Source: Christensenella sp. | Lineage (GTDB): Bacteria; Bacillota; Clostridia; Christensenellales; CAG-138 | Assembly (NCBI GenBank): GCA_034927595.1 | Contig: JAYFPQ010000069.1 | Location: forward strand, 26,412 to 90,411 | Length of the DNA: 64,000 nt | Reading direction: 5' to 3' | Shown here: piece by piece, positions 4,727-19,742 of the stretch | Numbering within the stretch: position 1 is the first letter of the stretch | Layout of the letters: every line of letters starts with the position of its first letter | Position numbers and translations under genes: made by a program | The notes under the pieces: generated by a model | What the model was told of the DNA's origin: nothing | Seen by the model: the letters and a program-made list of their open reading frames with translations, nothing else | Database searches by the model: none

Positions 4727-4767
4727 TCCTTGATGCCTCCTTTCGGTGGTTTCAAGGATATTTTTTT
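4727..4767 (+). terminator. Terminator-like hairpin inside the leader of the LeuA-like gene
   Basis: TCCTTGA...TCAAGGA stem followed by TATTTTTTT, 34 nt before the ATG. Confidence 0.55.
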
Positions 4768-4800
4768 AAACGCCGCAGAGAACCGGAAGGAGAACACGCC

Positions 4801-6222
4801 ATGGGAAACATACTCATTTCCGACGTAACCCTGCGTCAGGAACGCAAACGGACCGAAGCCGCGCTGAGCTTCCGTGAAAAACTGGAGATCGCGCGCGCTC
4901 TGGACCGACTGCGACTTAGCGGCGTTGAACTACCTTCCATTCAAAACGAAAAAGCGGATACGCTCCTCATCAAGTCCGTTGCCTCCGCGGTGAAGGACAG
5001 CCGCGTTGTCCTCGCCGCCGCGCTTTCGAGCGAGGGCGTCGAGCAGGCGTATGCCGCCATCAAGGAAGCGAACAAACCCTGCCTTCAGATTGCGGTGCCG
5101 ACCTCGACCGCGCAGATGGAATACATCTGCCATAAAAAGCCGGATCAGATTCTGTCGCTCATCGGCGAGCTCGTCAAGCAGGCGAAGTCCCTCTGCAAAG
5201 AGGTGGAGTTTGTCGCCGAGGACGCGACCCGCAGCGACGTGGAGTTTCTCTATCGCGCCATCGACACGGCAATTTCGGCGGGCGCGAGCATCGTGACGCT
5301 GGTGGACGGCTCGGAGGGGATGCTCCCCGCGCGCTTCGGCCAGTTCATTCGGGACGCGTATGCTCATGTACCGGCGCTGAGCAAGGTGTTGCTCGGCGTG
5401 CAGTGCGCGGACGGGCTGAGCCTTGCCGCGGCCGCGGCGCTGAGCGCCGTCGAAGCGGGCGCGGGACTGGTCAAGACCAGCACCGGCGGGGACGGCGTCT
5501 TGCCGCTCGAAACCATCGCGGGGATTCTGCGCGCGCGCGGGGTTGAACTCAACCTGAGCTCGAACATCGCGATGACCGAGCTGAGCCGCGCGGCGGGACA
5601 GGTGCGCTGGATGGTCAGCGCCAAGCGCGGAGCCGCTTCCGACTTTGAGGCGGGCGCGGCGCGCTCTATGGACGAAGCCGTCGTGTTGTCGAGCGAAAGC
5701 TCGCTTTCGGATATCTCCGCCGCCGTGCAGAAGCTCGGCTACGACCTCTCCGAAGAGGACAACGCAAAGGTATACGCCGCGTTTTTACGCATTGCGGATA
5801 AGAAAAACGTTGGCGAAAAGGAACTGGACGCAATCGTCGCGAGCGCGGCGCTGCAGGTTCCGCCGACCTATACGTTGGAAAGCTACGTCATCAACAGCGG
5901 AAACGTCATCACCGCGACCGCGCAGGTCAAGCTGCTCAAGCAGGGCAAGACGCTCTCCGGTTTTGCGGTTGGCGACGGCCCGATTGACGCGGCGTTTCTC
6001 GCCATTGAGCAGATCATTGGCCACCATTATGAGCTGGACGATTTCCAGATTCAGGCGGTTACGGAAGGGCGCGAGGCAATGGGCAGTGCGCTGGTGCGCC
6101 TCCGCGAGGACGGCAAGCTCTACTCCGGCAAGGGTATATCGACCGATATCATCGGCGCGAGCATCCACGCCTACCTCAACGCGCTCAACAAGATTGTCTA
6201 CGAGGAGGGCGCCCGTGCATGA
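4801..6222 (+). CDS. Degenerate 2-isopropylmalate synthase homologue with intact C-terminal leucine-binding regulatory domain
   Basis: LeuA-like fold (DVTLR, EFVAEDATR) but DGEQ->QERK and HxH->QCA; C-terminal GDGPIDA...STDIIGAS regulatory domain conserved. Confidence 0.8.
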   Translation: MGNILISDVTLRQERKRTEAALSFREKLEIARALDRLRLSGVELPSIQNEKADTLLIKSVASAVKDSRVVLAAALSSEGVEQAYAAIKEANKPCLQIAVPTSTAQMEYICHKKPDQILSLIGELVKQAKSLCKEVEFVAEDATRSDVEFLYRAIDTAISAGASIVTLVDGSEGMLPARFGQFIRDAYAHVPALSKVLLGVQCADGLSLAAAAALSAVEAGAGLVKTSTGGDGVLPLETIAGILRARGVELNLSSNIAMTELSRAAGQVRWMVSAKRGAASDFEAGAARSMDEAVVLSSESSLSDISAAVQKLGYDLSEEDNAKVYAAFLRIADKKNVGEKELDAIVASAALQVPPTYTLESYVINSGNVITATAQVKLLKQGKTLSGFAVGDGPIDAAFLAIEQIIGHHYELDDFQIQAVTEGREAMGSALVRLREDGKLYSGKGISTDIIGASIHAYLNALNKIVYEEGARA

Positions 6223-6291
6223 ACCGAACGATTGTAACAGGGGCAATTTGCCCTTCTGCGTCCCAGGCCGCGAAAAGGGGGAACGCGTAAG

Positions 6292-8793
6292 ATGAAACTG
6301 AGCTTTTCCACCCGAGGCTGGGGCGAATGCGGCTGGGAGGATTTCCTCGCCGCGGCAAAGGCGACCGGATACAGCGGCGTTGAGCTGCACGGGGTTGCGC
6401 ACTCCGCCTGGTCGCAGGACGGCGCGCCGTTTTCGCGCGCAAACGCAAGCCGGACGGTTCGGCGGTTGTTTGACGAGGGTCTCTGCATCAGCTGCGTGGA
6501 CTCCGTTTGCGACATTTCGTCCGCCGAGACGGACAAGGACGCGGAGCTGACCGAGACCATTCAACTGGCGCACGATTTTTCGATTCCCTATGTGCGACTT
6601 CGTGCGCTGGACGGCAGCGAAGCGGGCATTCAGGCGGCCTACGAGCGCATTTCGCGCGCGCTGCCGTTTGCCGAGGAGCGCGGCGTCATTCTGCTCGTGG
6701 AGACCGTAGCCGCCTTTGCGGACACGGCGAAGCTACAGAGCTTTTTAACCCGGTTTGCGAGCGACTCTCTCGCGGCGCTCTGGGATTTTCACCATCCCTA
6801 TTTTGACCACAGCGAATCGCCCGAAATGAGCATTAAGAACCTCGGCGCGTATGTCAAGCACGTTCACGTCAAGGACGCGGCGGACGGAGACTTCTGCCTG
6901 CCCGGCGAGGGCACGCTGCCGATGGCGGAGCTCATGTCTGCGCTGAGCTCGATCAACTACGACGGTTTCCTCTCGCTCGAGTGGGACCCCAAGTGGATGC
7001 CGGAGATGGACGATCTGGAGAGCGTGCTTGCGCACTTTTCCAACTATATGCAGCGCTTTGGCACCACCGCGCGGCAGAAACCGAAACGCTACCAGAACAA
7101 CGCCAAGACCGGCACGTTCGTCTGGCGGAAGGACATTCTGATCGATGCGACGTTTTCGCAGGTGCTCGACCGCATGGCGGAGGAGTATCCGGATCAGTAT
7201 GCGTTCAAGTATACGACGCTGGACTATACGCGGACCTATTCGGAATTCCGCGAGGACGTAGATCGCTGCTGCCGCGCGCTCGTGAGCATGGGCGTCGGCC
7301 CCGGCAGCCACGTCGCGGTCTGGATGACGAACCTGCCGCAGTGGTACATCGCCTTCTGGGCGGCACCCAAGATCGGCGCGGTGCTCGTCACCGTCAACAC
7401 AGCGTATAAGATTCACGAGGCGGAATATCTGCTCAAGCAGAGTGACACGCATACGCTGATTCTGGAGCAGGGGTATCGGGATTCGGACTATTCCGGCATT
7501 ATTGCCGAACTCTGCCCCGAACTGAAGACCACGCGCCCCGGCGAACACCTGCACGCAAGACGACTGCCGTTTTTACGAAACGTCGTCTCCGTCGGATACA
7601 AGCAGGAGGGCTGCCTGAACTGGGAAGAGATGATGGCGCGCTACAGCCGCACGCCCATCGAAGAGGTCAAGCGCCTTGCCGCTGCGGTCAACCCGCACGA
7701 CGTTTGCAACATGCAGTACACGAGCGGCACGACGGGTTTCCCCAAGGGCGTTATGTTGACGCACTACAACATCGTGAACAACGGCAAGTGCATCGGCGAC
7801 CGCATGGATCTCTCCACCGCGGATCGCATGATGATTCAGGTGCCGATGTTCCATTGCTTCGGCATGGTGCTGGCGATGACCGCCTGCGTGACGCACGGGT
7901 CGACCATGCTGCCGCTGCCGTACTTTTCGCCGAAACCCGCGCTGGCCTGCATCGATCAGGAGCACATTACCGCGTTCCATGGCGTACCGACGATGTTCAT
8001 CGCCATGCTGGAGCATCCGGACTTCCCGAAGACGGATTTCTCGTGCATGCGTACGGGCATTATGGCGGGCAGCCCCTGCCCGATCAAGGTCATGCAGGAC
8101 GTGCTCGAACAGATGCACATGGATCAGATCACGATCGTATTCGGTCAAACCGAAGCGTCGCCGGGCTGCACCATGAGCTCGACGGACGACCCCATCGAGG
8201 TGCGCGTTGGCACCGTCGGCCGCGCCCTGCCGGAGATCGAGTGCCGCATCGTCAGCCCGGAGACGGGCGAGGTGCTGCCGGTCGGCGAGATTGGCGAGTT
8301 TGTGGCGCGCGGTTACAACATCATGAAGGGCTACTACAAGATGCCCGGCGCGACGCGCAGCGCGATTGACGCCGAAGGCTGGCTGCACACGGGCGACCTC
8401 GCCTGCGAAACGCCGGAGGGGAACTACCGCATCACGGGCCGGCTCAAGGACATGATCATTCGCGGCGGCGAGAACATCTACCCCAAGGAGATTGAGGAGT
8501 TCCTCTACACGCACCCCAAGGTGAAGGATGTTCAGGTCATCGGCGTGCCGAGCGAGCAATATGGCGAGGAGATCATGGCCTGCGTCATCCTCAAAGAGGG
8601 CGAGTCCGCCACCGAACAGGAGATTCAGGACTACGTTCGCGCGAGCATGGCCAAGCACAAGGTGCCGAAGTATGTGGCGGTGGTGGACTCCTTCCCGATG
8701 AACGCGGCGGGCAAGATCATGAAGTACAAAATGCGCGAGGACGCGATCCAGAAACTCGGTCTGCAAAAGGCCGCGAGTGTGGTCACCGCATAA
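6292..8793 (+). CDS. Fusion: xylose-isomerase-like TIM barrel + AMP-dependent acyl-CoA synthetase
   Basis: N-term LVET/WDFHH/HVHVKD/SLEW metal motifs; C-term YTSGTTGFPKG, FGQTE, LHTGDL, IIRGGENIYP. Confidence 0.9.
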   Translation: MKLSFSTRGWGECGWEDFLAAAKATGYSGVELHGVAHSAWSQDGAPFSRANASRTVRRLFDEGLCISCVDSVCDISSAETDKDAELTETIQLAHDFSIPYVRLRALDGSEAGIQAAYERISRALPFAEERGVILLVETVAAFADTAKLQSFLTRFASDSLAALWDFHHPYFDHSESPEMSIKNLGAYVKHVHVKDAADGDFCLPGEGTLPMAELMSALSSINYDGFLSLEWDPKWMPEMDDLESVLAHFSNYMQRFGTTARQKPKRYQNNAKTGTFVWRKDILIDATFSQVLDRMAEEYPDQYAFKYTTLDYTRTYSEFREDVDRCCRALVSMGVGPGSHVAVWMTNLPQWYIAFWAAPKIGAVLVTVNTAYKIHEAEYLLKQSDTHTLILEQGYRDSDYSGIIAELCPELKTTRPGEHLHARRLPFLRNVVSVGYKQEGCLNWEEMMARYSRTPIEEVKRLAAAVNPHDVCNMQYTSGTTGFPKGVMLTHYNIVNNGKCIGDRMDLSTADRMMIQVPMFHCFGMVLAMTACVTHGSTMLPLPYFSPKPALACIDQEHITAFHGVPTMFIAMLEHPDFPKTDFSCMRTGIMAGSPCPIKVMQDVLEQMHMDQITIVFGQTEASPGCTMSSTDDPIEVRVGTVGRALPEIECRIVSPETGEVLPVGEIGEFVARGYNIMKGYYKMPGATRSAIDAEGWLHTGDLACETPEGNYRITGRLKDMIIRGGENIYPKEIEEFLYTHPKVKDVQVIGVPSEQYGEEIMACVILKEGESATEQEIQDYVRASMAKHKVPKYVAVVDSFPMNAAGKIMKYKMREDAIQKLGLQKAASVVTA

Positions 8794-8838
8794 CGCGCGA
8801 AATCGGGTCGTTTGAGCGCATAATTATGAAATTGGCGG

Positions 8839-8867
8839 TTGACAAACGGCGTGAATGCTGATAGGAT
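8839..8867 (+). promoter_or_regulatory. SigA promoter (extended -10) of T-box 1
   Basis: TTGACA-17-TAGGAT with TG at 8859-8860. Confidence 0.7.
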
Positions 8868-8892
8868 ACCAATAATTTCATACAGAACAAAA

Positions 8893-9159
8893 GGCTGTGA
8901 CGAAGACGGACGAACGCGCCGCACAAAGAGAGCCGGGGAGGGTGAAATCCCGGCGGCAGGCTACTTCACAATCCCATCCCTTCCGAGCCGAAAACTTGAA
9001 ACGGAGTTTCCGAAATAGGGTTTTCCGTATTTGCCGCGTAAAGGCAAAAGGCTTGTTGGAGCCTGACGAGTGGCGTTTTCACAAACGCAAGTTGAGTGGT
9101 ACCGCGGGACAAATCAAAATGATTGCCCGTCTCAAGAGAAATCTTGGGACGGGTTTTTT
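8893..9159 (+). promoter_or_regulatory. T-box riboswitch, predicted Ile specifier (AUC)
   Basis: GA motif GCTGTGA, AGAGAG/GGTGAAA stem I top, GTTGAGTGGTACCGCG T-box at 9091, terminator 9126-9159; AUC at 8976-8978. Confidence 0.85.
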
Positions 9160-9280
9160 CTATTTTTCTACTGCTGCGCAGTATTGCTTATTTAGAAACT
9201 GCTTCATGAGAAGCAAAGAAAAAGGAACTCCGGCTTGTGCCCGCAGGGCACACAAAAAATAATCCTATTCAGGAGGGACT

Positions 9281-11551
9281 ATGGAAACAGTCGAACTCAA
9301 CAGCCAATTGCTTGAAATCGCCTACCGCATTCGCGAGATGCGCGAAATTTCCGGGTTCACGCGGGACGAGATGGCAAAACGCACGGACGTCACCTTGCAG
9401 GAATACACCGACTACGAGGCGGGCAAGATGGACTTTCCGTTTACGTTTATCCATAAGTGCGCGGTTGCGTTCGGCATTGGCATTACCGACCTGCTCGAGG
9501 GCGACAGCGCCAAGCTTTCGTCCTACACGGTGACCCGCAAAGGTCAAGGGCAGATGGCGGCAAAAGAGGACGGAATCGAGATCAGCTCGCTGGCCCCGAT
9601 GTTCCGCAACAAGGTCGCCGAGCCATACTGGGTGCGCTATGCATACTCCGAGTCCCAGCAAAACCGCCCGATCCACCTGACGACGCACAACGGGCAGGAG
9701 TTTGACCTCGTGCTCCACGGTTCGCTCAAGGTGCAGGTCGGCGAGCACACCGAGATCCTGCGCGAGGGCGACAGCATCTACTACAACAGCGCAACGCCGC
9801 ACGGCATGATTGCCGTCGAGGGCAGCGAGTGCCTGTTTCTCGCGGTCGTGCTGCCGGGCGAGGGCGCGGCGAACACCGCCGAGCTGCACACGAGCATCGT
9901 GGAAGCGCGCAGAGCCGAGGATTACGTCTGCAACCGTTTTGTCAAAACGCAGGAAGACGAGCACGGCGCGCTCCAGCACGTGGACTTCGTGGACACCGAC
10001 AAATTCAACTTTGCGTTCGACATTGTGGACGCCATCGCGAAGAAAGCGCCAAACAAGCTCGCCATGCTGCACGTGGACATGGACGGCGTGGAGCGGAAGT
10101 TCTCGTTTGAGGACATGAGCAAGGCCAGCAACCGCACCGCGAACTACTTCCGTTCGCTCGGCATCAAGAAGGGCGACAAGGTCATGCTCGTGCTCAAGCG
10201 CCGCTACCAGTTCTGGTTTGCGATGCTGGCGTTGCATAAGATTGGCGCGGTCGCGATTCCCGCGACATATCAGCTCGTTGCGCACGACTTTACCTATCGC
10301 TTCCAGGCGGCGGGCGTCAGTGCGCTGGTCTGCACGGCGGACGGCGAAGCGGCGGCGCAGGCGGAGCTGGGGCAGGAGGGCTGCCCGGAGCTGACGACGA
10401 AGATTCTCGTCGGCGGAACGCGCGAGGGCTGGCACGACTTCGACAGTGAATATCAGCGCTTCAGCAGCCGTTTTGAGCGTCCGGACGACGCGATTGCGGG
10501 CGAGGACACGATGCTGATGTTCTTTACGAGTGGCACGACGGGTTATCCAAAGATCGCGTCGCATAGCTGCACCTACGCGCTGGGACACTTCGTCACCGCG
10601 AAATACTGGCATCAGGTGCACTCCGACGGGCTGCATTTAACCATTTCGGACACCGGCTGGGGCAAGGCGCTCTGGGGCAAGATCTACGGGCAGTGGCTCT
10701 GTGAAGCGGCGATCGCCACGTTTGAATTCGAGCGGTTCGACGCGAAGTACCTTATTCCGCTGTTTGCCAAGCACAAGGTGACGACGCTCTGCGCGCCGCC
10801 GACGATCTACCGCATGATGATTAAGGAAGACCTGAGCAAGTTTGACTTTTCGACCATTGTCCACGCGACGACGGCGGGCGAGGCGCTCAACCCCGAGGTG
10901 TTCTATCAGTTTGAACAGGCGACGGGGCTACGCATCATGGAAGGATTCGGACAGACGGAAACGACGCTGCTCGTGGCCTGCCTGACCGGAATGAACCCGA
11001 AACCCGGCTCGATGGGGCGTCCGGTGCCAACCTACGACGTCGACCTGCTCACGCCGGAGGGAAAGCCAGCCGAGCTCGGCGAACCCGGCGAAATCGTGAT
11101 CCACGTGGACAAAGGCCATCCCTGCGGACTGTTCCAGGGGTACTATCGGGACGAGGAACAGACCCGCGAGGCGGTCTGTGACGGAATCTACCACACGGGC
11201 GATCTCGCCTGGCGGGACGAGGACGGCTACTATTGGTACGTTGGCCGCCGGGACGACGTCATCAAGAGCTCCGGCTACCGCATCGGGCCGTTTGAGATTG
11301 AGAATGTCATCATGGAACTGCCATATGTGCTCGAGTGCGGCGTGTCTGCGGCGCCCGACGAGCTGCGTGGCCAGGTGATCAAGGCGAGCATCGTGCTCAC
11401 CGCCGGCACCGAGGGCACCGAGGAGCTCAAGAAAGAGATTCAGGAGTACGTAAAAACGCATACCGCGCCGTATAAATACCTGCGCAGTGTCGTCGTCCGC
11501 GACGAGCTGCCAAAGACGATCAGCGGCAAAATCATGCGCCGCCTGCTCTAA
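9281..11551 (+). CDS. XRE-HTH + cupin + medium-chain acyl-CoA synthetase fusion (paralogue 1)
   Basis: IAYRIREMREISG HTH, HNGQEFDLV cupin, FTSGTTGYPK, GFGQTET, YHTGDL, IKSSGYRIGPFEIE. Confidence 0.9.
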   Translation: METVELNSQLLEIAYRIREMREISGFTRDEMAKRTDVTLQEYTDYEAGKMDFPFTFIHKCAVAFGIGITDLLEGDSAKLSSYTVTRKGQGQMAAKEDGIEISSLAPMFRNKVAEPYWVRYAYSESQQNRPIHLTTHNGQEFDLVLHGSLKVQVGEHTEILREGDSIYYNSATPHGMIAVEGSECLFLAVVLPGEGAANTAELHTSIVEARRAEDYVCNRFVKTQEDEHGALQHVDFVDTDKFNFAFDIVDAIAKKAPNKLAMLHVDMDGVERKFSFEDMSKASNRTANYFRSLGIKKGDKVMLVLKRRYQFWFAMLALHKIGAVAIPATYQLVAHDFTYRFQAAGVSALVCTADGEAAAQAELGQEGCPELTTKILVGGTREGWHDFDSEYQRFSSRFERPDDAIAGEDTMLMFFTSGTTGYPKIASHSCTYALGHFVTAKYWHQVHSDGLHLTISDTGWGKALWGKIYGQWLCEAAIATFEFERFDAKYLIPLFAKHKVTTLCAPPTIYRMMIKEDLSKFDFSTIVHATTAGEALNPEVFYQFEQATGLRIMEGFGQTETTLLVACLTGMNPKPGSMGRPVPTYDVDLLTPEGKPAELGEPGEIVIHVDKGHPCGLFQGYYRDEEQTREAVCDGIYHTGDLAWRDEDGYYWYVGRRDDVIKSSGYRIGPFEIENVIMELPYVLECGVSAAPDELRGQVIKASIVLTAGTEGTEELKKEIQEYVKTHTAPYKYLRSVVVRDELPKTISGKIMRRLL

Positions 11552-11658
11552 AAAGGCTTGGTTCCGCCGCTTTGCGCCTTTGCGCGAAGCGGCGGACGAA
11601 CGAAATCAACACACGATGCAGATTGTGTAAAGCCTGCATAAAACTTCGGAAATACTCC

Positions 11659-11688
11659 TTGACAAGAAGAGAGGATTCGTGGTAGTCT
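11659..11688 (+). promoter_or_regulatory. SigA promoter of T-box 2
   Basis: TTGACA-18-TAGTCT. Confidence 0.55.
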
Positions 11689-11753
11689 GTACGAAATTAA
11701 ACGCCCGTTGCGTAACTTACGCGGCGGCAACGTTCCACACAAGGTCTAAAAAA

Positions 11754-12058
11754 GGCTGAGACGGAGAGGATCGCGTCCCGATTGCTTTTGCAGAGACCCG
11801 GCGGCTGGTGAAAGCCGGGATGGCATGGACGATGATTTGTAGCTCCCGAGCCGGAAGGAAGAACACCGAGCATACGGTTCGGCAAGTAGAACCTTCCCGT
11901 GCATGCGGCGTTACGGCATAGGGCTTATTGGAGCCTGAAGAGGGGTATCGGCGGCAACGTCGGTGCAATTTGAGTGGTACCGCGGGTAAAAGCTACGAGC
12001 TGCACTCGTCTCAAAGATGATCGGACTATTACGGGATCATCTTGGGGACGATTTTTTT
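11754..12058 (+). promoter_or_regulatory. T-box riboswitch, predicted Val specifier (GUA)
   Basis: GGCTGAGA GA motif, CAGAGA/GGTGAAA, TTTGAGTGGTACCGCG T-box at ~11969, terminator 12006-12058; GUA at 11839-11841. Confidence 0.85.
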
Positions 12059-12149
12059 GTACCTTTCGGTGATGTTCCAGAGCGTCCGAGCGCAACTGAG
12101 CAATCATGCCGGGGTGGTTTTCGCCGCCGGACGAAAGGGAGCAGGCAAT

Positions 12150-14441
12150 ATGAAGGGCAGCAACAGCGAACTCGATTTCCAGCTACAGGAGATGGCGGCT
12201 CGCATCCGCGAGCTAAGGCGCATCTCAAACCTGAGCACCGCCGAGATGGCAGAGCGCACCGGCGTCTCCGAGGCGGAATACACCTCTTGCGAAAGCGGAG
12301 GGCACGATCTCAGCTTCGCGTTCATCTACCGCTGCGCAATGGCATTTGGCGTGAACGTCACGGACATCATCGAGGGCACGAGCCCGACGCTGCGTGGCTA
12401 CGCGATTACCCGCGCGGGCGAGGGTGCGCGCATTGAGCAGGCGCACGGCATGGTCTACTATAACCTCGCCGCGCCGTTTCAGAACCGCATTTCCGAGCCG
12501 CTCTATGTCGAGGTTGGCTACAACCCCGAGGCGGAGCAGAAGGACATTGAACTCACCACGCACGAGGGTCAAGAGTGCGACCTCGTGATCAGCGGCACGC
12601 TCAAGCTCCAGATCGGTTCGCATACGGAGATTCTGCACAAGGGCGACTGCGCGTACTTCGATAGCTCGATTCCCCACGGCATGATCGCCGTCGGCGGCGA
12701 GGACTGCCGGTTTTACGCGATTGTCCTGAACCCCTCCGCCTACAAGGACGCGCACAGTACCGAGGCCATCCAAAATCCGGCCTGGGAACGGCCGGACGAG
12801 TCGGCGCAGCCGCGCATCTTCAACAAGTTTATCCATCCAACCATCGACGCGGACGGGAACCCCACCGCGTTGACTTTCGAGAATACGGACAAGTTCAACT
12901 TCGCGTTTGACATTGTGGACGGCCTCGCGGAGAAATATCCGGACAAGCTCGCGATGCTACATATTTCGAAGGACAAGACCGAGCGGCGCTTCACGTTTGG
13001 CGACTTCAAGCGCGCGAGCGCGCAGTGCGCAAACTACTTCGCCTCCCTCGGCATCCAGCGCGGGGACCGCGTGCTGCTCGTGCTCAAGCGGCATTACCAG
13101 TTCTGGTTTGCGCTCTTGGGGCTGCACAAGCTCGGCGCCATCGGCATTCCCGCGACGTATCTGCTGCAGGAGCACGACTACGCCTACCGCTTCGAGAAGG
13201 CGGGCATCAGCGCGATCATCTGCACGGCGGACGAGGACGCCGCGGAAACGGCCGACCGCGCAGCGGCGGGGTTTTCCGGCAAACTCACGAAGATTCTCGT
13301 CGGCGGCAAGCGCGACGGCTGGCACGATTTTGACAGCGAGTATTCGCGCTTCTCCGGCCGTTTTCCGCGCGAAGCGGACGCGCCCTGCGGCGACGATTTG
13401 ATGCTCATGTTCTTCACGAGCGGCACGACGGGGCAGCCAAAGCTCGCCGCGCATACCTATAAATACCCGCTGGGCCACCACATCACCGCCGACTACTGGC
13501 AGTGCGTAAATCCAAACGGCCTGCATCTAACGATTTCGGATACCGGCTGGGCAAAGGCAATGTGGGGCAAGCTCTACGGGCAGTGGCTCAGCGAGGCGGC
13601 GGTGTTTGTTTACGACTTTGACCGGTTTGACGCGGCGGATATTCTGCCGATGTTTGCGAAATACAACATCACGACCTTCTGCGCGCCGCCGACGATGTAC
13701 CGCATGCTGATTAAGGAGGATCTCTCCAAGTACGATCTGAGCTCCATCAAGCACGCAACCATTGCGGGCGAGGCGCTCAACCCGGAGGTCTTCCGCCAAA
13801 TGGAGAAGTCCACCGGATTGCAGCTCATGGAGGGATTCGGCCAGTCCGAAACCACGCTGGTGATCGGCAACCTCCGCGGCGGCACCCACAAGGTTGGCTC
13901 AATGGGCAAGCCCGTTGCGCTCTACGACGTGGATCTCGTCGACCCGGATGGAAATCCCGTGGAAACGGGAACGAACGGCGAAATCGTCATTCGCATCGAA
14001 AACGGCGATCCCTGCGGGTTGTTTAAGGAGTACTACCGGGACGACGAGGCGAACCGCGAGGCCAAGCGCGACGGACTGTACCATACCGGCGACCTCGCCT
14101 GGAAGGACGAGGACGGCTACTATTGGTACGTGGGCCGCGCGGACGATTTGATCAAATCCTCCGGCTACCGCATCGGGCCGTTCGAAATTGAGAGCGTCAT
14201 CATGGAACTGCCATACGTGCTCGAATGCGGCATCTCCGCCGAGCCGGACGATATCCGCGGGCAGATCATCAAGGCGAGCATCGTGCTCACCGCGGGCACC
14301 GAAGGTACGGAAGCGCTCAAGTCCGAGATTCAGGAGTACGTCAAGAGCCACACCGCGCCGTATAAATATCCGCGCATCGTGGTGTTCCGCGAGAGCCTGC
14401 CAAAGACGACGAGCGGAAAGATCATCCGAAGGCTGCTATAG
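12150..14441 (+). CDS. XRE-HTH + cupin + medium-chain acyl-CoA synthetase fusion (paralogue 2)
   Basis: Colinear with 9281-11551 (HEGQECDLV, FTSGTTGQPK, GFGQSET, YPRIVVF); ATG 12150 after AAAGGGAG. Confidence 0.9.
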   Translation: MKGSNSELDFQLQEMAARIRELRRISNLSTAEMAERTGVSEAEYTSCESGGHDLSFAFIYRCAMAFGVNVTDIIEGTSPTLRGYAITRAGEGARIEQAHGMVYYNLAAPFQNRISEPLYVEVGYNPEAEQKDIELTTHEGQECDLVISGTLKLQIGSHTEILHKGDCAYFDSSIPHGMIAVGGEDCRFYAIVLNPSAYKDAHSTEAIQNPAWERPDESAQPRIFNKFIHPTIDADGNPTALTFENTDKFNFAFDIVDGLAEKYPDKLAMLHISKDKTERRFTFGDFKRASAQCANYFASLGIQRGDRVLLVLKRHYQFWFALLGLHKLGAIGIPATYLLQEHDYAYRFEKAGISAIICTADEDAAETADRAAAGFSGKLTKILVGGKRDGWHDFDSEYSRFSGRFPREADAPCGDDLMLMFFTSGTTGQPKLAAHTYKYPLGHHITADYWQCVNPNGLHLTISDTGWAKAMWGKLYGQWLSEAAVFVYDFDRFDAADILPMFAKYNITTFCAPPTMYRMLIKEDLSKYDLSSIKHATIAGEALNPEVFRQMEKSTGLQLMEGFGQSETTLVIGNLRGGTHKVGSMGKPVALYDVDLVDPDGNPVETGTNGEIVIRIENGDPCGLFKEYYRDDEANREAKRDGLYHTGDLAWKDEDGYYWYVGRADDLIKSSGYRIGPFEIESVIMELPYVLECGISAEPDDIRGQIIKASIVLTAGTEGTEALKSEIQEYVKSHTAPYKYPRIVVFRESLPKTTSGKIIRRLL

Positions 14442-14509: not shown

Positions 14510-15157
14510 TTGAATGCCAAGCGCGTGACCATTCTGACCGGACACTACGGCAGCGGAAAAACGAGCATCGCGGTGCAATACGCGCTGCGCCTGCGCGAAG
14601 CGGGCAACGCGGTCTCCATCTGCGACCTCGACATCGTGAATCCGTACTTCCGCTCGACGGATCACCGCGCGGAGTTGGAGGCGGCGGGCGTTTGCCTCGT
14701 AACCTCCCAGTTTGCGGGCAGCAACCTCGATATTCCCGCGCTGCCCAAGGAGCTCTACGCCGCCATTGCGGACAAGAGCGGCTATGCGGTGCTGGACGTC
14801 GGCGGCGACGACAGGGGCGCGGTTGCGCTGGGGCGCTATGTGCCGGACATCGTTGGCGAAGGCAATTACGAAATGCTCTTTGTCGCGAACTTCTACCGCC
14901 CGCTGACGAAGACGGCCGAGGACGCGTTGCAGGTTCTGCGCGAGGTGGAAGCCGCCTGCGGCATGCGTGTCACCGCGCTGGTCAACAACAGCAACCTTGG
15001 CTTGGAGACGAGCGCGGAGGATGTGCTGGGAACCGTTGATCGTATGGAGCGCTTCGCGCAGCTTGCCGAACTGCCAATCGCGTTTACGAGCGTGAGCAAT
15101 CGATTGAAAGAACAGTTAGATCATCAATTAGAGCATCCGTTTTGGATGAACTTTTAG
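14510..15157 (+). CDS. Uncharacterised P-loop ATPase (ParA/MinD-like) associated with the VOR operon
   Basis: GHYGSGKT Walker A, DLDIVNPYFRS, LDVGGD; TTG start after GAGGAG. Confidence 0.7.
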   Translation: MNAKRVTILTGHYGSGKTSIAVQYALRLREAGNAVSICDLDIVNPYFRSTDHRAELEAAGVCLVTSQFAGSNLDIPALPKELYAAIADKSGYAVLDVGGDDRGAVALGRYVPDIVGEGNYEMLFVANFYRPLTKTAEDALQVLREVEAACGMRVTALVNNSNLGLETSAEDVLGTVDRMERFAQLAELPIAFTSVSNRLKEQLDHQLEHPFWMNF

Positions 15158-15236: not shown

Positions 15237-15443
15237 ATGGCAAAAGTGACGTTTGAGACGAATCTTTGCAAAGGCTGCGGGCTCTGCGTAGACGCATGCC
15301 CCAAGAAGATCCTCAAGATCGATCGAGAGACGATCAACCAAAAGGGACACTCGCCCGCCGCAATGACGGACGAAGCACAGTGCATTGGCTGCGGCTTCTG
15401 CGCCACCATGTGCCCCGACTGCGTAATTACGGTGGAAAGGTAA
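15237..15443 (+). CDS. 2x[4Fe-4S] ferredoxin (oxidoreductase delta subunit)
   Basis: CKGCGLCVDACP and CIGCGFCATMCP. Confidence 0.9.
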   Translation: MAKVTFETNLCKGCGLCVDACPKKILKIDRETINQKGHSPAAMTDEAQCIGCGFCATMCPDCVITVER

Positions 15444-15454
15444 GGGCAAACAGC

Positions 15455-16519
15455 ATGGCGGACAAGGTTTTAATGAAGGGCAACGAGGCCATCGCCGAGG
15501 CGGCGATCCTCGCGGGCTGCCGACACTACTTCGGCTACCCGATCACCCCGCAGACGGAGATTGCGGCCTATATGGCAAAGCGGATGCCGAAGATCGGCGG
15601 CGTGTTTCTGCAGGCCGAGAGCGAAATTGCGGCGATCAACATGGTCTACGGCGTATCCGCCGCGGGCAAGCGCGTGATGACCAGCTCCTCGAGCCCCGGC
15701 ATTTCGCTCAAGGGCGAGGGTTTGAGCTATCTTGCGGGCAGCGACCTGCCGGCGTTTCTCGTGAACGTTCAGCGCGGCGGCCCGGGCCTCGGCGGCATTC
15801 AGCCCTCGCAGGCGGACTATTTTCAGGCGACGCGCGGCGGCGGCCACGGCGACTATCACATGATCGTGCTCGCGCCCGCCTCCGTTCAGGAGATGGCGGA
15901 TTTGACCGTCAAGGGCTTTGACCTCGCGGATAAATACCGCATGACGGCAATGATCCTCGCGGACGGCACCATCGGACAGATGATGGAGCCCGTCTCCCTC
16001 GATATCGGCGAGCAGAAGGTCTACGACAAGCCCTGGGCGCTCACCGGAACCAAGATGGAGCGTGAGCACAACATCGTGACCTCGCTGTTTCTCAAGCCGG
16101 AAGCGCTGGAGCAGCTCAACTTTGAGCGCTACGCGCGCTATCGCATTGTCGAAGAGAACGAGGTCATGTACGAGTCGTTCCAGATGGACGACGCGGAAAT
16201 CTGCGTCGTAGCTTACGGAATTACGGCGCGCGTTTCGAAAAACGCCGTGACCGCCGCGCGTGCCAAGGGCATCCGCGTCGGACTGATTCGCCCGATTACG
16301 CTCTGGCCGTTCCCGAAAGCGGTGCTGGCCGAGGCGGCAACGCGGGTCAAGTCTTTCCTCTCGGTGGAGATGTCCATGGGGCAGATGATCGAGGACATCG
16401 AACTCTCGATTCGCTGCGCAAAACCGGTGACCCTCGTCAACCGCGTCGGCGGCATGATCCCGACGCCGGAGCAGGTACTTTCCGCCATTGAACAGGCGGC
16501 AGGAGGTGACAAGAAATGA
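15455..16519 (+). CDS. vorB: 2-oxoisovalerate-type 2-oxoacid:ferredoxin oxidoreductase alpha subunit
   Basis: GNEAIAEAA, GYPITPQTE, ESEIAA, SSSPG, QRGGPGLG. Confidence 0.85.
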   Translation: MADKVLMKGNEAIAEAAILAGCRHYFGYPITPQTEIAAYMAKRMPKIGGVFLQAESEIAAINMVYGVSAAGKRVMTSSSSPGISLKGEGLSYLAGSDLPAFLVNVQRGGPGLGGIQPSQADYFQATRGGGHGDYHMIVLAPASVQEMADLTVKGFDLADKYRMTAMILADGTIGQMMEPVSLDIGEQKVYDKPWALTGTKMEREHNIVTSLFLKPEALEQLNFERYARYRIVEENEVMYESFQMDDAEICVVAYGITARVSKNAVTAARAKGIRVGLIRPITLWPFPKAVLAEAATRVKSFLSVEMSMGQMIEDIELSIRCAKPVTLVNRVGGMIPTPEQVLSAIEQAAGGDKK

Positions 16520-17262
16520 TTGTCGCAAAACGTCCGAATTCGCTGACCGCAACGCCCACGCATTATTGCCCGGGCTGCACGCACGGCATTATTCACCGCC
16601 TCGTCGCGGAGGCGATCGACACGCTGGGCATCGAGGGACGCACCATTGGCGTCGCGCCCGTCGGCTGTTCGGTGCTGGCGTATAACTATTTCACGGTCGA
16701 CATGATCGAAGCAGCGCATGGGCGCGCGCCCGCGGTTGCTACTGGAGTCAAGCGCGCGGAGCCGGGCAACATCGTCTTTACCTATCAGGGCGACGGCGAC
16801 CTCGCGAGCATCGGCATGGCGGAGACCGTCCACGCCGCGGCGCGGAACGAGAACATTACGATTATCTTCGTAAACAACGCGATCTACGGTATGACCGGCG
16901 GCCAGATGGCGCCGACCTCGCTGCCGGGGCAGGTCACCCAGACCTCGCCTTACGGACGCGACGTGACCCAGTGCGGCTACCCGATTCGCGTCTGCGAAAT
17001 GCTCTCCGAGCTCGAAGGGCCGGAGTACCTCGCCCGCGTTGCGGTCAACAGCGTGAAAAACGTCAATGCCGCGAAAAAGGCAATTGAGAAGGCGTTCCGC
17101 AATCAGATTGAGGGCAAGGGCTTCTCGCTGGTCGAGGTCGTCTCCGGCTGCCCGACGAACTGGGGCATGACGCCGCAGGCCGCGCTCAAATGGATTGACG
17201 ACGCGATGATTCCCTACTATCCGCTTGGGGTCTACAAGGACCGCAGCGCAAAGGAGGCGTAA
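16516..17262 (+). CDS. 2-oxoacid:ferredoxin oxidoreductase beta (TPP-binding) subunit
   Basis: YCPGCTHG, QGDGDLASIG, NNAIYGMTGGQ. Confidence 0.9.
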   Translation: MIVAKRPNSLTATPTHYCPGCTHGIIHRLVAEAIDTLGIEGRTIGVAPVGCSVLAYNYFTVDMIEAAHGRAPAVATGVKRAEPGNIVFTYQGDGDLASIGMAETVHAAARNENITIIFVNNAIYGMTGGQMAPTSLPGQVTQTSPYGRDVTQCGYPIRVCEMLSELEGPEYLARVAVNSVKNVNAAKKAIEKAFRNQIEGKGFSLVEVVSGCPTNWGMTPQAALKWIDDAMIPYYPLGVYKDRSAKEA

Positions 17263-17268
17263 CGCGCT

Positions 17269-17820
17269 ATGGCTAACAAGAGCAAGACTACGCGCATCCT
17301 CATTGCCGGATTTGGCGGACAGGGTGTACTGTTCATGGGAAAACTGCTTGCCTACGTCGGCATGGCGGAGGATCGTCAGGTCAGCTGGCTGCCCTCCTAC
17401 GGGCCGGAAATGCGCGGCGGCACGGCGAATTGCAGCGTGATTCTGAGCGACGACCCCATCGGTTCGCCCATCGTGGACGCGCCGGACGTGCTGATCGCCA
17501 TGAACCTGCCGTCGTTTCAGAAGTATCAGAACGCCGTCGTTCCCGGCGGCTCCATCGTGCTGGACTCCTCGCTGATTGGCGAAGCACCGGCGCGTAAGGA
17601 CATTTCCTACTACGCGCTGCCCGCGACGCAGCTGGCGACGGACGAGCATCTGGACGGGTTGAGCAACATGATTCTGCTCGGTAAGTTCCTCGAAGCCTGC
17701 CTGCCGACGAGCGGCGAGCTCACGAAAAAGGCGCTCTTGAAGGTGGTTCCCGCGAAAAAGGAACACCTGCTCGCGTCGAACGAACAGGCCATTGCGCTCG
17801 GACGGGCGTATCAGGGGTAA
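17269..17820 (+). CDS. 2-oxoacid:ferredoxin oxidoreductase gamma subunit
   Basis: [20 protein letters not shown]. Confidence 0.9.
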
Positions 17821-17826
17821 GAAACG

Positions 17827-18615
17827 ATGAAGATCGCCTGCGTGCAGATGGACGTGCTCCCGGGCAAGCCGGAGCAAAACTATGCCATCGCCGAGGCGCT
17901 GATTCGAAAGGCCGCGCGAAAACAGCCGGACGTCATCCTACTGCCGGAAACGTGGAACACGGGCTTTGCGCCACAGCACCTCGACCCCGCGCAGGCGGAC
18001 GAGGACGGCGCGCGAACGAAGCGCTTATGTTCCGCGCTGGCTAAGGAACTGGGGGTCAACCTGCTTGCGGGCAGCGTCACGACCCGCCGCGCGGACGGGC
18101 TCTACAACACCGCCTACGGGTTCAACCGCTCGGGCGAGCTCGTTTGCAGCTACGACAAGACGCATCTGTTCTCCCCGCTGGGGGAGGACAAGGCGTATCG
18201 AAAGGGCGGTTCCCTCGCGTGTTTTACGCTGGACGGAGTCAATTGCGCGCTGATCACCTGCTACGACCTGCGTTTTCCGGAGCTGGCGCGCACGCTGGCG
18301 CTGCCGGGGCTGGATGTGCTCTTTGTGGTCTCCCAGTGGCCGAAGCAGCGGATTTCGCATCTAGAGACGCTCGCAAGAGCGCGCGCAATTGAGAACCAAA
18401 CGTTCGTCGCGGTGTGCAACGCCTGCGGAAATGCGTATGGAACGAAGTTCGGCGGGCGCTCAATGGTGATCGATCCGCTGGGGAACATCCTCCGGCAGGC
18501 GGGATCACGCGAGAGCGTTCTACATGCAGAAATCTCGCTGGGCATGCTCGCGCAGGTGCGGCAGGCGATTCCGGTATTTCAGGATCGCAGGCCGGAACTC
18601 TATTCATTGGATTAA
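17827..18615 (+). CDS. Carbon-nitrogen hydrolase (nitrilase/omega-amidase family)
   Basis: LPETWN, YDKTHLF, TCYDLRFPE (E-K-C triad). Confidence 0.9.
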   Translation: MKIACVQMDVLPGKPEQNYAIAEALIRKAARKQPDVILLPETWNTGFAPQHLDPAQADEDGARTKRLCSALAKELGVNLLAGSVTTRRADGLYNTAYGFNRSGELVCSYDKTHLFSPLGEDKAYRKGGSLACFTLDGVNCALITCYDLRFPELARTLALPGLDVLFVVSQWPKQRISHLETLARARAIENQTFVAVCNACGNAYGTKFGGRSMVIDPLGNILRQAGSRESVLHAEISLGMLAQVRQAIPVFQDRRPELYSLD

Positions 18616-18662: not shown

Positions 18663-19742
18663 ATGAGCTACGAATTTTCAATCACGAAAAACCCGAATCC
18701 CAAGCCGAAGCCGGATCCCAATACGTTGGTCTTCGGTCAGGTGTTCACCGACCACATGTTCGTCATGGACTATGACGAAGGCAAGGGCTGGCACGACGGC
18801 CGCATTCTTCCCTACGGCGACATTCTGATCAGCCCGGCGAGCAGCGTGCTGCACTACGCGCAGATGATGTTTGAAGGCATGAAGGCGTACCGTACCGAGG
18901 ACGGTCATGTTCAGCTGTTCCGCCCGGAGATGAACGCGCGCCGCCTGAACCGGACGAACGAACGTATGTGCATGCCGCAGATGGACGAGGATCTCTTCGT
19001 CGCGGCGGTCAAGGCCGTGGTCAAGATGGACGCGGACTGGGTGCCGGATGCGCCGTTTACCTCGCTGTACGTGCGCCCGTTCATCATTGCGGACGATCCG
19101 GCGCTCGGCGTAAAATCCGCCAAGCACTTCCGCTTCATGATCATTCTCTGCCCGTCCGGCCCGTACTATGCGGCAAACCGCGGCAAGCTCTCGACGACGC
19201 GCATCTTCGTGGAAGACGAGTTCATCCGCGCGGCGCACGGCGGAACGGGCTACGCCAAGGTTGGCGGCAACTACGCGGGTTCGCTCCGCGCGTCCCAGAA
19301 GGCGCACGAGTGCGACTGCAACGACGTGCTCTGGCTGGATGCCATCGAGCACAAATACGTCGAAGAGGTTGGTTCCTCCAACGCGTTCTTCATGATTGGC
19401 GACGAGGTCATTACGGCTCCGCTGGCGGGTACGATTCTGCCGGGCATCACGCGGGATTCCGTGTTGACGCTGCTGCGTGAATGGGGCATCCGCGCGAGCG
19501 AGCGCAAGATTTCGATTGACGACATCATTGAAGCGGCGAAGAAGGGCGAGCTGAAGGAAGCCTTTGCCAGCGGCACCGCGGCGGTCATCTCACCGATGGG
19601 CCTGCTGCACTACCAGGACAAGGAATACACCATCGGCAACCGCGAGGTCGGCCCGATTTCGCAAAAGCTCTACGACACCATCACCGGCATCCAGACCGGC
19701 AAGATTGCGGATACGCACGGCTGGATTCAGCGTGTCGTCTGA
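18663..19742 (+). CDS. ilvE: Branched-chain amino acid aminotransferase
   Basis: LHYAQMMFEGMKAY, KVGGNYA, EEVGSSN, ILPGITR, GTAAVISP. Confidence 0.95.
   Translation: MSYEFSITKNPNPKPKPDPNTLVFGQVFTDHMFVMDYDEGKGWHDGRILPYGDILISPASSVLHYAQMMFEGMKAYRTEDGHVQLFRPEMNARRLNRTNERMCMPQMDEDLFVAAVKAVVKMDADWVPDAPFTSLYVRPFIIADDPALGVKSAKHFRFMIILCPSGPYYAANRGKLSTTRIFVEDEFIRAAHGGTGYAKVGGNYAGSLRASQKAHECDCNDVLWLDAIEHKYVEEVGSSNAFFMIGDEVITAPLAGTILPGITRDSVLTLLREWGIRASERKISIDDIIEAAKKGELKEAFASGTAAVISPMGLLHYQDKEYTIGNREVGPISQKLYDTITGIQTGKIADTHGWIQRVV

What the first reader, a model, noticed from the sequence alone, without database searches (positions are those of the whole stretch)
8893..12058. Paralogous ligases labelled by different T-box specifiers (Ile AUC vs Val GUA)
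In all three T-boxes the codon lying one nucleotide 5' of the basal stem I helix gives AUC (8976), GUA (11839) and UUC (20059). The same register yields Ile, Val and Phe, which fit the downstream genes. All three antiterminator bulges read UGGU, compatible with an A73 discriminator. The ligases resemble medium-chain acyl-CoA synthetases like the Methanosarcina AAE, which acts on branched short acids. Prediction: 9281-11551 activates 2-methylbutyrate and 12150-14441 activates isobutyrate, so RNA regulation reveals how the paralogues split.
Basis: partly seen in the sequence, partly recalled or inferred. Interest (0 to 1): 0.7.

Follow-up and report, generated by a model that had tools for sequence, protein, structure and literature searches.

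The report
tRNA-gated branched-acid ligase twins for Ile/Val
Two neighbouring copies of a short branched-chain acyl-CoA ligase each sit behind their own tRNA-sensing RNA switch, one reading isoleucine and one valine. The pairing is kept in at least 80 gut and rumen bacterial species, so it points to the genes that turn the fermentation acids 2-methylbutyrate and isobutyrate back into these amino acids.

Summary
Rfam's T-box model matches 8888-9137 (72 bits, E 6e-15), 11749-12016 (74 bits, E 2.5e-15) and 19967-20213 (102 bits). Its alignment places the specifiers at AUC 8976, GUA 11839 and UUC 20059, and all three bulges read UGGU.

The same register gives the right amino acid for 10 of 11 other T-boxes in this genome, including valS, ileS, metG, pheST, thrS and cysES.

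I examined 80 related species loci, mostly Oscillospirales:
- Ligase-A orthologues carry AUC in 74 of 74 callable leaders.
- Ligase-B orthologues carry GUA (30) or GUC (6) in 36 of 36.
- On the ligase tree the Ile/Val label needs only one change.

The only catalytic-domain residue that strictly separates the two clades is Gly461 (A, 80/80) versus Ala468 (B, 41/41). It lies next to the acyl-pocket Trp of the 2-methylbutyrate-preferring Methanosarcina enzyme (PDB 3ETC, 50% identical).

VOR (2-oxoisovalerate:ferredoxin oxidoreductase) subunits and IlvE follow the ligases. In 22 related loci a third ligase operon carries a Leu T-box.

Substrate specificity remains inferred, not measured. I found no published description in the held library.

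The parts
8839..8867 (+). promoter-like site of the Ile unit (TTGACA-17-TAGGAT, TG before the -10)
   Evidence: consensus scan, 10 of 12 matches; not tested
8888..9137 (+). T-box leader 1, Ile: specifier AUC 8976-8978, spacer C 8979, basal helix GAAG/CUUC, bulge UGGU 9097-9100
   Evidence: RF00230, 72.1 bits, E 6.4e-15. Orthologues carry AUC in 74 of 74 callable leaders.
9125..9160 (+). intrinsic terminator of leader 1; shares CCCGUCUCAAGA with the antiterminator
   Evidence: 13-bp stem plus U run; sequence read
9281..11551 (+). ligase A (756 aa): XRE-HTH + cupin + AMP-binding + AMP-binding_C. Pocket segment TGW-G461-K-A-L-W465-GK. Predicted 2-methylbutyrate--CoA ligase.
   Evidence: Pfam and NCBIfam; 3ETC at E 1.4e-184; Gly461 in 80 of 80 A-clade sequences
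11563..11596 (+). GC-rich hairpin after ligase A with no U tract; a possible insulator or processing site
   Evidence: sequence and a chance-level Rfam hairpin hit; function unknown
11659..11688 (+). weak promoter-like site of the Val unit (TTGACA-18-TAGTCT)
   Evidence: read by eye; not listed by the scan
11749..12016 (+). T-box leader 2, Val: specifier GUA 11839-11841, spacer G, basal helix GGAG/CUCC, bulge UGGU 11975-11978
   Evidence: RF00230, 73.7 bits, E 2.5e-15. Orthologues carry GUA (30) or GUC (6) in 36 of 36 leaders.
12006..12058 (+). intrinsic terminator of leader 2 (17/18-nt arms, 11-nt loop, U7)
   Evidence: sequence; it overlaps the 3' arm of the antiterminator
12150..14441 (+). 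ligase B (763 aa): same architecture, 60% identical to A. Pocket segment TGW-A468-K-A-M-W-GK. Predicted isobutyrate--CoA ligase.
   Evidence: Ala468 in 41 of 41 B-clade sequences
14510..15157 (+). ParA/Mrp-like P-loop ATPase, conserved between ligase and VOR in 55 of 80 loci
   Evidence: weak Pfam and NCBIfam hits; synteny
15237..17820 (+). 2-oxoisovalerate-type 2-oxoacid:ferredoxin oxidoreductase: vorD 15237-15443, vorB 15455-16519, vorA 16516-17262, vorC 17269-17820
   Evidence: NCBIfam VorB at 545 bits, above its cut-off; TPP and gamma-subunit families; conserved synteny
17827..18615 (+). carbon-nitrogen hydrolase (Nit-like); present in 7 of 80 loci
   Evidence: Pfam CN_hydrolase, 1.5e-49
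18663..19742 (+). branched-chain aminotransferase IlvE, the only copy found in the assembly
   Evidence: NCBIfam PRK13357 at 481 bits, above its cut-off; start codon; tblastn of the genome
19967..20213 (+). T-box leader 3, Phe: specifier UUC 20059-20061; terminator 20203-20237
   Evidence: RF00230, 102.3 bits
20294..22093 (+). phenylacetate--CoA ligase (PaaK-like) and an ACT-domain-pair protein
   Evidence: TIGR02155 at 553 bits (below its 646 cut-off) and Pfam ACT_8

Best explanation
The region encodes a tRNA-gated salvage route that makes isoleucine and valine from the fermentation acids 2-methylbutyrate and isobutyrate.

How it would work. Each of two paralogous AMP-forming acyl-CoA ligases has its own transcription-attenuating T-box leader. 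When tRNA-Ile(GAU) is uncharged it pairs with the AUC specifier and with the UGGU bulge. This stabilises the antiterminator and lets ligase A be transcribed. Uncharged tRNA-Val does the same at the GUA leader for ligase B and the genes behind it: a P-loop ATPase, vorDBAC, nit and ilvE. The ligase makes the branched acyl-CoA. The VOR-type 2-oxoacid:ferredoxin oxidoreductase carboxylates it reductively to the 2-oxo acid. IlvE transaminates that to the amino acid. A Phe leader in front of a PaaK-like ligase repeats the logic for phenylacetate.

Origin. The leader-plus-ligase unit was duplicated in tandem. The specifier then switched: AUC to GUC is one transition, and GUC to GUA is synonymous. The enzymes diverged at a pocket-wall residue, Gly in A and Ala in B.

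What is shown: the RNA elements, their specifiers, the strict specifier-to-clade pairing, the pocket difference and the conserved gene order.

What is inferred: the substrates, the direction of VOR, and the in vivo response.
For: - RNAalifold on 47 leaders gives compensatory changes in 33 of 51 pairs and in all four pairs of the helix just 3' of the codon.
- Calibration in the same genome: GUC-valS, AUC-ileS, AUC-cimA/ilvBD, AUG-metG, UUC-pheST, ACC-thrS, UGC-cysE-cysS, UGG-trpB, UGG-ABC binding protein and UAC-tyrosine-phenol-lyase-like gene.
- Eighty species loci were compared. The A clade carries AUC in 74 of 74 leaders and the B clade carries GUA or GUC in 36 of 36. Synonymous variation in the B clade shows that the amino-acid meaning is what is conserved.
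- On the ligase tree the B clade holds 41 rows with support 100, and the Ile/Val label needs one change.
- A more distant tandem pair at 56% identity follows the same rule, with AUC plus Gly and GUC plus Ala.
- The best solved relative is MacsMa, PDB 3ETC (E 1.4e-184, 50% identity). It prefers 2-methylbutyrate and uses Trp259 in its acyl pocket (PMC10455477). That Trp is W465 here.
- The only strictly clade-specific catalytic-domain residue is G461/A468, four residues before that Trp. MacsMa has Gly at this position, like clade A.
- The order ligase-(ligase)-P-loop-vorB-vorA-vorC-(nit)-ilvE recurs in about 50 of 80 loci.
- A third ligase operon (pseudo-LeuA plus TIM-barrel ligase) carries a Leu T-box, CUC or CUG, in 22 related loci.
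Against: - No enzyme assay or expression data exist.
- MacsMa is broad in its adenylation step, and by my own recollection S. aureus MbcS takes both 2-methylbutyrate and isobutyrate. The paralogues may therefore overlap in specificity.
- The two leaders score below Rfam's gathering threshold. Leader 1 lacks the canonical AGUA/GAA S-turn, and a C rather than a purine follows its codon.
- VOR and the genome's only IlvE lie behind the Val terminator. Ile starvation alone would seem to give ligase A without its partner enzymes, unless there is read-through, basal expression or an internal promoter.
- In 5 of 41 loci ligase B has no leader of its own and sits directly behind ligase A.
- One calibrator, the hisS-aspS leader, reads GGC by the simple rule and is not explained.
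- The role of the HTH-cupin module is unknown.
Confidence: 0.72

Rival explanations
1. The T-boxes are real and amino-acid specific, but the two ligases share one broad substrate range covering isobutyrate, 2-methylbutyrate and perhaps isovalerate. The duplication would serve regulation only, letting either starvation signal raise a generic branched-acid ligase.
For: MacsMa adenylates C3 to C8 and branched acids (PMC10455477). The best NCBIfam model is MbcS, though below its cut-off (428 against 850 bits), and I recall that enzyme taking both acids. The two paralogues are 60% identical and their catalytic motifs are nearly the same.
Against: Both copies and their separate specifiers are kept across family-level divergence, with one label change on the tree. 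The single strictly discriminating catalytic-domain residue lies in the acyl-pocket segment. A purely regulatory duplication would not need this.
Confidence: 0.2
2. Ligase A activates propionate, not 2-methylbutyrate. Propionyl-CoA would be carboxylated to 2-oxobutyrate, which enters the normal Ile pathway. This genome has that pathway, with cimA, ilvB and ilvD behind another Ile T-box.
For: An Ile label fits either precursor. The genome keeps ilvB and ilvD downstream of an AUC T-box. Propionate carboxylation to 2-oxobutyrate is known in anaerobes (my own knowledge).
Against: Clade A has the larger pocket (Gly461, as in the 2-methylbutyrate-preferring MacsMa) and clade B the smaller one (Ala). 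This is the wrong order if A took the smaller C3 acid. The adjacent oxidoreductase matches VorB (the 3-methyl-2-oxobutanoate type) above its cut-off.
Confidence: 0.06
3. The ligases feed branched acyl-CoA primers into membrane fatty-acid synthesis, as MbcS does in S. aureus, or run a catabolic route. Under this view the T-box linkage is incidental.
For: The nearest named family, MbcS, serves branched-chain fatty-acid synthesis (NCBIfam name, plus my own knowledge).
Against: T-boxes respond to uncharged tRNA, so they signal a need for the amino acid. The specifier matches the carbon skeleton in three separate branches, or four with Phe. VOR and IlvE are co-located in about 50 loci. AMP-forming ligases are not used for energy-yielding breakdown.
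Confidence: 0.02

Closest known systems
Transcriptional T-box leaders of branched-chain amino-acid genes in Bacillota (Rfam RF00230; for example ileS, valS and the ilv-leu operon of Bacillus subtilis)
   Same: The parts match: Stem I with a K-turn, a specifier loop, the AGAGA/GGUGNAA distal platform, the UGGN bulge in the 14-nt T-box sequence, and competing antiterminator and terminator. The AUC and GUA/GUC specifiers are those used for ileS and valS in this same genome.
   Different: The controlled genes are acyl-CoA ligases followed by VOR, not aaRS, de novo biosynthesis or transporter genes. No such regulon member appears in the RegPrecise T-box tables or in my text searches. The Ile leader has a non-canonical S-turn and often a C after the codon. 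Two of the three window leaders score below the gathering threshold.
Methanosarcina acetivorans medium-chain acyl-CoA synthetase MacsMa (PDB 3ETC)
   Same: It is 50% identical over the whole ligase domain. It shares YHTGD, GFGQTET (Gly in place of the Acs pocket Trp), the alternative pocket Trp (Trp259, W465 here), Lys256 (K462 here) and PKTISGKI. Its preferred substrate is 2-methylbutyrate (PMC10455477).
   Different: MacsMa has no HTH-cupin N-terminus, is archaeal and has no T-box. Here two paralogues differ at the residue equivalent to MacsMa Gly255.
Staphylococcus aureus MbcS (NCBIfam NF047394, methylbutyryl-CoA synthetase)
   Same: It is the best-scoring NCBIfam model for both ligases (E 5e-128 and 1e-125). 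It is a short branched-chain acid ligase.
   Different: The scores (428 and 420 bits) are half the equivalog cut-off of 850. MbcS supplies fatty-acid primers. It is not T-box controlled and has no HTH-cupin fusion (the last two points are my own knowledge).
Reductive carboxylation of branched-chain volatile fatty acids to Val, Ile and Leu in rumen bacteria (labelling studies by Allison and co-workers in the 1960s and 70s; my own knowledge)
   Same: The chemistry is the one proposed here: acid to acyl-CoA to 2-oxo acid (ferredoxin-dependent) to amino acid. The habitat matches too, since most related loci come from rumen and gut metagenome-assembled genomes (MAGs).
   Different: That work defined physiology, not genes or regulation. 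Here candidate genes, one ligase per acid and a tRNA-sensing control layer are proposed.

Membership tests
T-box leader (RF00230) | Significant match to the covariance model over its full length | tested here: met
   Model positions 1-219 are matched. E-values are 6.4e-15, 2.5e-15 and 1.9e-21.
T-box leader (RF00230) | Score at or above Rfam's gathering threshold (93 bits) | tested here: not met
   Leaders 1 and 2 score 72.1 and 73.7 bits. Leader 3 scores 102.3. Orthologues of leaders 1 and 2 reach 113, 103 and 96 bits, so the shortfall is local divergence, namely a non-canonical S-turn and insertions.
T-box leader (RF00230) | Specifier codon in the Stem I internal loop, followed by one unpaired base (usually a purine) and the basal helix above a K-turn | tested here: met
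   The codon columns are confirmed by the CM alignment and by RNAalifold with compensatory changes in all four helix pairs. The base after the codon is G in leader 2. It is C in leaders 1 and 3, and A or C about equally among A-clade orthologues.
T-box leader (RF00230) | T-box sequence with a UGGN bulge complementary to the tRNA NCCA end, within an antiterminator that competes with a terminator | tested here: met
   GAGUGGUACCGCGGG is present in both leaders. The terminators at 9125-9154 and 12006-12051 reuse the 3' antiterminator arm. tRNA-Val has A73.
T-box leader (RF00230) | Antitermination induced by the cognate uncharged tRNA | not testable with these tools
   This needs in vitro transcription or reporter assays.
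ANL superfamily, medium-chain/branched short-chain acyl-CoA synthetase (MacsMa / ACSM / MbcS group) | AMP-binding and AMP-binding_C domains with motif I (TSGTTGxPK), motif III (YxxGD) and the A10 lysine (PKTxSGKI) | tested here: met
   Pfam E-values are 1.5e-60 and 3e-63. The motifs were read in the translations.
ANL superfamily, medium-chain/branched short-chain acyl-CoA synthetase (MacsMa / ACSM / MbcS group) | Gly in place of the Acs pocket Trp (GFGQTET) and the alternative pocket Trp (MacsMa Trp259) | tested here: met
   GFGQTET/GFGQSET and W465/W472 are aligned to chain residue 282 of 3ETC, which is Trp259 (PMC10455477).
MbcS equivalog (NF047394) | Score above the curated equivalog cut-off (850 bits) | tested here: not met
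   The scores are 428 and 420 bits. The ligases are related to MbcS but are not equivalogs of it.
Reductive-carboxylation route from branched acids to BCAA | Ligase, VOR-type oxidoreductase and branched-chain aminotransferase encoded together | tested here: met
   VorB scores 545 bits and IlvE 481 bits, both above their cut-offs. The synteny recurs in about 50 of 80 loci.
Reductive-carboxylation route from branched acids to BCAA | Substrate specificity of each ligase and carboxylating direction of VOR in vivo | not testable with these tools
   This needs kinetics and isotope labelling.

The most novel reading that the evidence does not exclude
Each branch of this acid-salvage system may have two sensing layers. 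The T-box would report that the amino acid is needed. A protein-borne ligand sensor attached to or beside the ligase would report product or substrate level: the XRE-HTH plus cupin module on the Ile and Val ligases, the ACT pair beside PaaK, and the dead LeuA regulatory domain beside the Leu-branch ligase. The HTH-cupin ligases would then be bifunctional enzyme-regulators, like BirA. The clade-specific residues of the cupin module (8 of the 10 strict A/B discriminators lie in residues 45-116) would encode Ile-versus-Val, or acid-specific, ligand recognition.
Probability: 0.25. Interest if true: 0.8.

Novelty: new variant of a known kind. Interest (0 to 1): 0.66.

Why it matters
Rumen and gut anaerobes have been known since the 1960s to need or use "isoacids" (isobutyrate, 2-methylbutyrate, isovalerate) to build branched-chain amino acids. 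Isoacid supplements are used in dairy nutrition. The activating enzymes and their control in Firmicutes have had no gene-level assignment that I could find.

Here the T-box specifier acts as a built-in label that says which amino acid each ligase serves. The label is kept across at least 80 species and matches a one-residue pocket difference.

This gives direct, cheap experiments: kinetics, a G/A swap, tRNA-dependent antitermination and isotope tracing. It also adds acyl-CoA ligases to the classes of genes that T-boxes control. Finally, it offers a clean natural example of a leader-plus-gene duplication followed by a one-base specifier switch.

Tried and rejected
2. The primary MacsMa characterisation (PMC2976453) is not held. 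I used the later paper PMC10455477 for Trp259 and the substrate preference.
3. A PDB sequence search with the N-terminal 195 residues (HTH-cupin) found nothing at E<=0.01.
4. My first regex specifier callers missed some cases or added spurious candidates. I resolved these by reading the sequences, by Rfam alignments of eight further leaders and by RNAalifold.
5. I looked for a third HTH-cupin-ligase clade with another specifier, using the 50%-identity representatives. I found only a more distant Ile/Val tandem that obeys the same rule, and a degenerate paralogue without a leader of its own.
6. The hisS-aspS leader of this genome reads GGC by the simple rule and has a UGGC bulge. I could not reconcile this with His or Asp, and I count it as a failed calibrator.
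7. I considered propionate as the substrate of ligase A and judged it less likely on pocket size and the VorB match.
8. Literature searches for T-box together with CoA ligase, VOR, isobutyrate or 2-methylbutyrate found nothing relevant. The RegPrecise T-box regulon supplement has no vor, paaK or acs entries.
Full report
**What is in the sequence**

A gathering-threshold Rfam scan of the window finds one T-box leader at 19967-20213 (102.3 bits). A permissive scan of 8700-12300 adds two full-length matches: 11749-12016 (73.7 bits, E 2.5e-15) and 8888-9137 (72.1 bits, E 6.4e-15).

In the model alignments the specifier columns fall on three codons:
- AUC 8976-8978, followed by C and the helix CUUC
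- GUA 11839-11841, followed by G and CUCC
- UUC 20059-20061, followed by C and UUCC

All three leaders carry GGUGGUACC, that is, a UGGU bulge. Each ends in a terminator that reuses the 3' arm of the antiterminator: 9125-9154, 12006-12051 and 20203-20237, each followed by a U run. Promoter-like sites precede leaders 1 and 3, and a weaker one precedes leader 2.

**Is the register trustworthy?**

The window's own assembly is a 3.2-Mb MAG in 165 contigs. It holds 15 T-box matches. I applied the same columns to the other leaders and looked at what lies downstream:

| Specifier | Downstream gene(s) |
|---|---|
| GUC | valS |
| AUC (+C) | ileS |
| AUC (+C) | a citramalate/isopropylmalate-synthase-like gene with ilvB and ilvD |
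| AUG | metG |
| UUC | pheS-pheT |
| ACC | thrS |
| UGC | cysE-cysS |
| UGG | trpB |
| UGG | an ABC-transporter binding protein |
| UAC | a tyrosine-phenol-lyase/tryptophanase-like gene |

Only the hisS-aspS leader reads oddly, as GGC with a UGGC bulge. The ileS leader shows that a C after AUC is normal in this organism. tRNA-Val(UAC), (GAC) and (CAC) are present and all have A73. tRNA-Ile and tRNA-Phe genes are not in the incomplete assembly.

**The genes**

ORF 9281-11551 (756 aa, P0001) and ORF 12150-14441 (763 aa, P0002) are 60% identical. Both consist of an XRE-type HTH, a cupin domain, AMP-binding and AMP-binding_C.

Their best solved relative is the Methanosarcina acetivorans medium-chain acyl-CoA synthetase, PDB 3ETC (E 1.4e-184; 50% identity over 525 columns). 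Its preferred substrate is 2-methylbutyrate, and its acyl pocket uses Trp259 while a Gly replaces the Acs pocket Trp (PMC10455477). Both features are present here: W465 and GFGQTET. The best NCBIfam model is MbcS, at half its cut-off.

Behind ligase B come:
- a ParA/Mrp-like P-loop protein (14510-15157)
- vorD (15237-15443), vorB (15455-16519; VorB model 545 bits, above its cut-off), vorA and vorC
- a Nit-like hydrolase
- ilvE (18663-19742)

The Phe leader precedes a PaaK-like phenylacetate-CoA ligase and an ACT-pair protein.

**Comparative test of the labelling idea**

The fused architecture is very common in gut and rumen Clostridia.

A scan of one genome per species returned 80 loci, mostly Oscillospiraceae, Acutalibacteraceae, Christensenellaceae and Ruminococcus MAGs. 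They hold 119 ligase genes, 121 with the window's two: 80 of type A (62-83% identity to P0001; 100% for the window's own copy) and 41 of type B (57-62%). Type B always lies just downstream of type A. Nearly every gene has UGAGUGGUACCGCG within about 150 nt upstream.

I read the codon one base 5' of the basal helix by rule and by eye:
- Type A gives AUC in 74 of 74 leaders that are complete. Five more are cut by contig ends, and one gene sits directly behind another ligase.
- Type B gives GUA (30) or GUC (6) in 36 of 36. The other five B genes lie 30-110 nt behind A with no leader of their own.

Rfam alignments of eight of these leaders place the same codons. On a tree of the 121 proteins the B clade (41 rows) has support 100, and the Ile/Val label needs a single change.

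MAFFT aligns 47 A and B leaders along their full length, so they are homologous. The codon sits in columns 100-102: A-U-C against G-U-A/C. RNAalifold leaves these columns unpaired. It pairs columns 15-18 with 104-107, with compensatory changes at all four pairs and no broken pair. Overall, 33 of 51 predicted pairs covary.

A more distant tandem, at 56% identity to P0001, again has AUC first and GUC second.

**Do the enzymes differ where it matters?**

I searched the 121-sequence alignment for columns at least 85% conserved within each clade and different between them. This gave ten positions. Eight lie in the HTH-cupin module, at residues 45-116. One lies in the linker. Only one lies in the catalytic domain: Gly461 in 80 of 80 A sequences against Ala468 in 41 of 41 B sequences.

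That residue sits in TGW-[G/A]-K-[A/S]-[L/M]-W-GK, four residues before the pocket Trp and next to the Lys equivalent to MacsMa Lys256. The neighbouring Leu464 (78 of 80 in A) is Met or Ala in B. MacsMa, the 2-methylbutyrate enzyme, has Gly like clade A. The distant tandem keeps the rule, with GWGK behind AUC and GWAK behind GUC.

This is inference from homology, not a structure.

**Context and a third branch**

The order ligase A-(ligase B)-P-loop-vorB-vorA-vorC-(nit)-ilvE recurs in about 50 of the 80 loci.

In 33 loci a LeuA-like gene plus a TIM-barrel-AMP-binding fusion lies next to the block. The window's copies are 4717-6222 and 6292-8793. In 22 of those loci that operon has its own T-box with a Leu specifier, CUC or CUG. 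The window's copy has none.

So in relatives three different ligases carry Leu, Ile and Val labels, and the window adds Phe for PaaK. This is strong circumstantial support for the view that the label names the amino acid made from the activated acid.

**Mechanism, with its status**

Shown:
- canonical T-box parts, the specifiers, and competing terminators
- the strict clade-to-specifier pairing
- the pocket difference
- synteny with VOR and IlvE

Inferred:
- Uncharged tRNA-Ile or tRNA-Val stabilises the antiterminator.
- Ligase A makes 2-methylbutyryl-CoA and ligase B makes isobutyryl-CoA.
- VOR carboxylates these reductively, and IlvE completes Ile and Val.

The evolutionary path is most simply a tandem duplication of leader plus gene, followed by an AUC-to-GUC transition and later GUC-to-GUA.

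**Open problems**

- VOR and the only IlvE detectable in the assembly lie behind the Val terminator. Expression during Ile-only limitation therefore needs read-through, basal transcription or an unseen promoter.
- Leader 1 lacks the usual AGUA/GAA S-turn and scores below Rfam's threshold.
- Relatives of these ligases are broad, so overlapping specificity is the main rival (about 0.2).
- Propionate as the substrate of ligase A is a minor rival.

**Novelty**

Full-text searches that combined T-box with CoA ligase, VOR, isobutyrate, 2-methylbutyrate or reductive carboxylation found no description. The RegPrecise T-box regulon tables list no vor, paaK or acs genes.

Earlier notes of this scan describe the same arrangement in many other genomes. 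They are unchecked AI notes and I did not use them as evidence.

The RNA and the enzyme each belong to known families. What is new is their combination: a T-box regulon of acid-activating ligases with one paralogue per amino acid.

Noticed in passing
window 4717-8793; related loci such as L065:6324-6564(-) and L038:6330-6563(-): The LeuA-like gene plus TIM-barrel-AMP-binding ligase operon carries a Leu-specifier T-box (CUC or CUG) in 22 related loci. It has no T-box in this window. This suggests a Leu/isovalerate branch whose RNA control was replaced here.
   Followed up: partly
window 9281-9630 and 12150-12500 (residues 45-116 of both ligases): Eight of the ten strictly clade-discriminating residues between ligase A and B lie in the HTH-cupin module. 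That module has therefore diverged in a paralogue-specific way, possibly in ligand or operator specificity.
   Followed up: partly
own genome G000:C8:3453-3759 (L013): A T-box with a UAC (Tyr) specifier and a UGGU bulge precedes a 483-aa beta-eliminating lyase of the tyrosine-phenol-lyase/tryptophanase type. This may be another salvage-type T-box target, making Tyr from phenol.
   Followed up: partly
own genome G000:C101:11637-11874 (L004): The hisS-aspS leader reads GGC in the standard register (GCA or CAC if shifted) and has a UGGC bulge. The specifier and discriminator do not fit His or Asp in any simple way.
   Followed up: partly
window 18663-19742: This ilvE is the only branched-chain aminotransferase that tblastn finds in the 92%-complete assembly, yet it lies behind the Val T-box terminator. 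De novo Ile and Leu synthesis would depend on this unit too.
   Followed up: partly
window 14510-15157: A 215-aa ParA/Mrp-like P-loop protein is conserved between the ligase and vorD/vorB in 55 of 80 loci. It may be an Fe-S cluster delivery or maturation factor for VOR.
   Followed up: no
L096:4001-6277: A distant third HTH-cupin-ligase paralogue (43% identity) has a degenerate motif I (LQSYSYGMAKP), GYGLAET in place of GFGQTET, and has lost the A10 lysine. It is probably catalytically dead. It sits behind an Ile-T-box ligase and before a class I/II aminotransferase.
   Followed up: partly
window 11563-11596: A GC-rich perfect hairpin (CCGCCGCTTTGCGC...GCGCGAAGCGGCGG) without a U tract lies between the ligase A stop codon and the promoter of the Val unit.
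   Followed up: no
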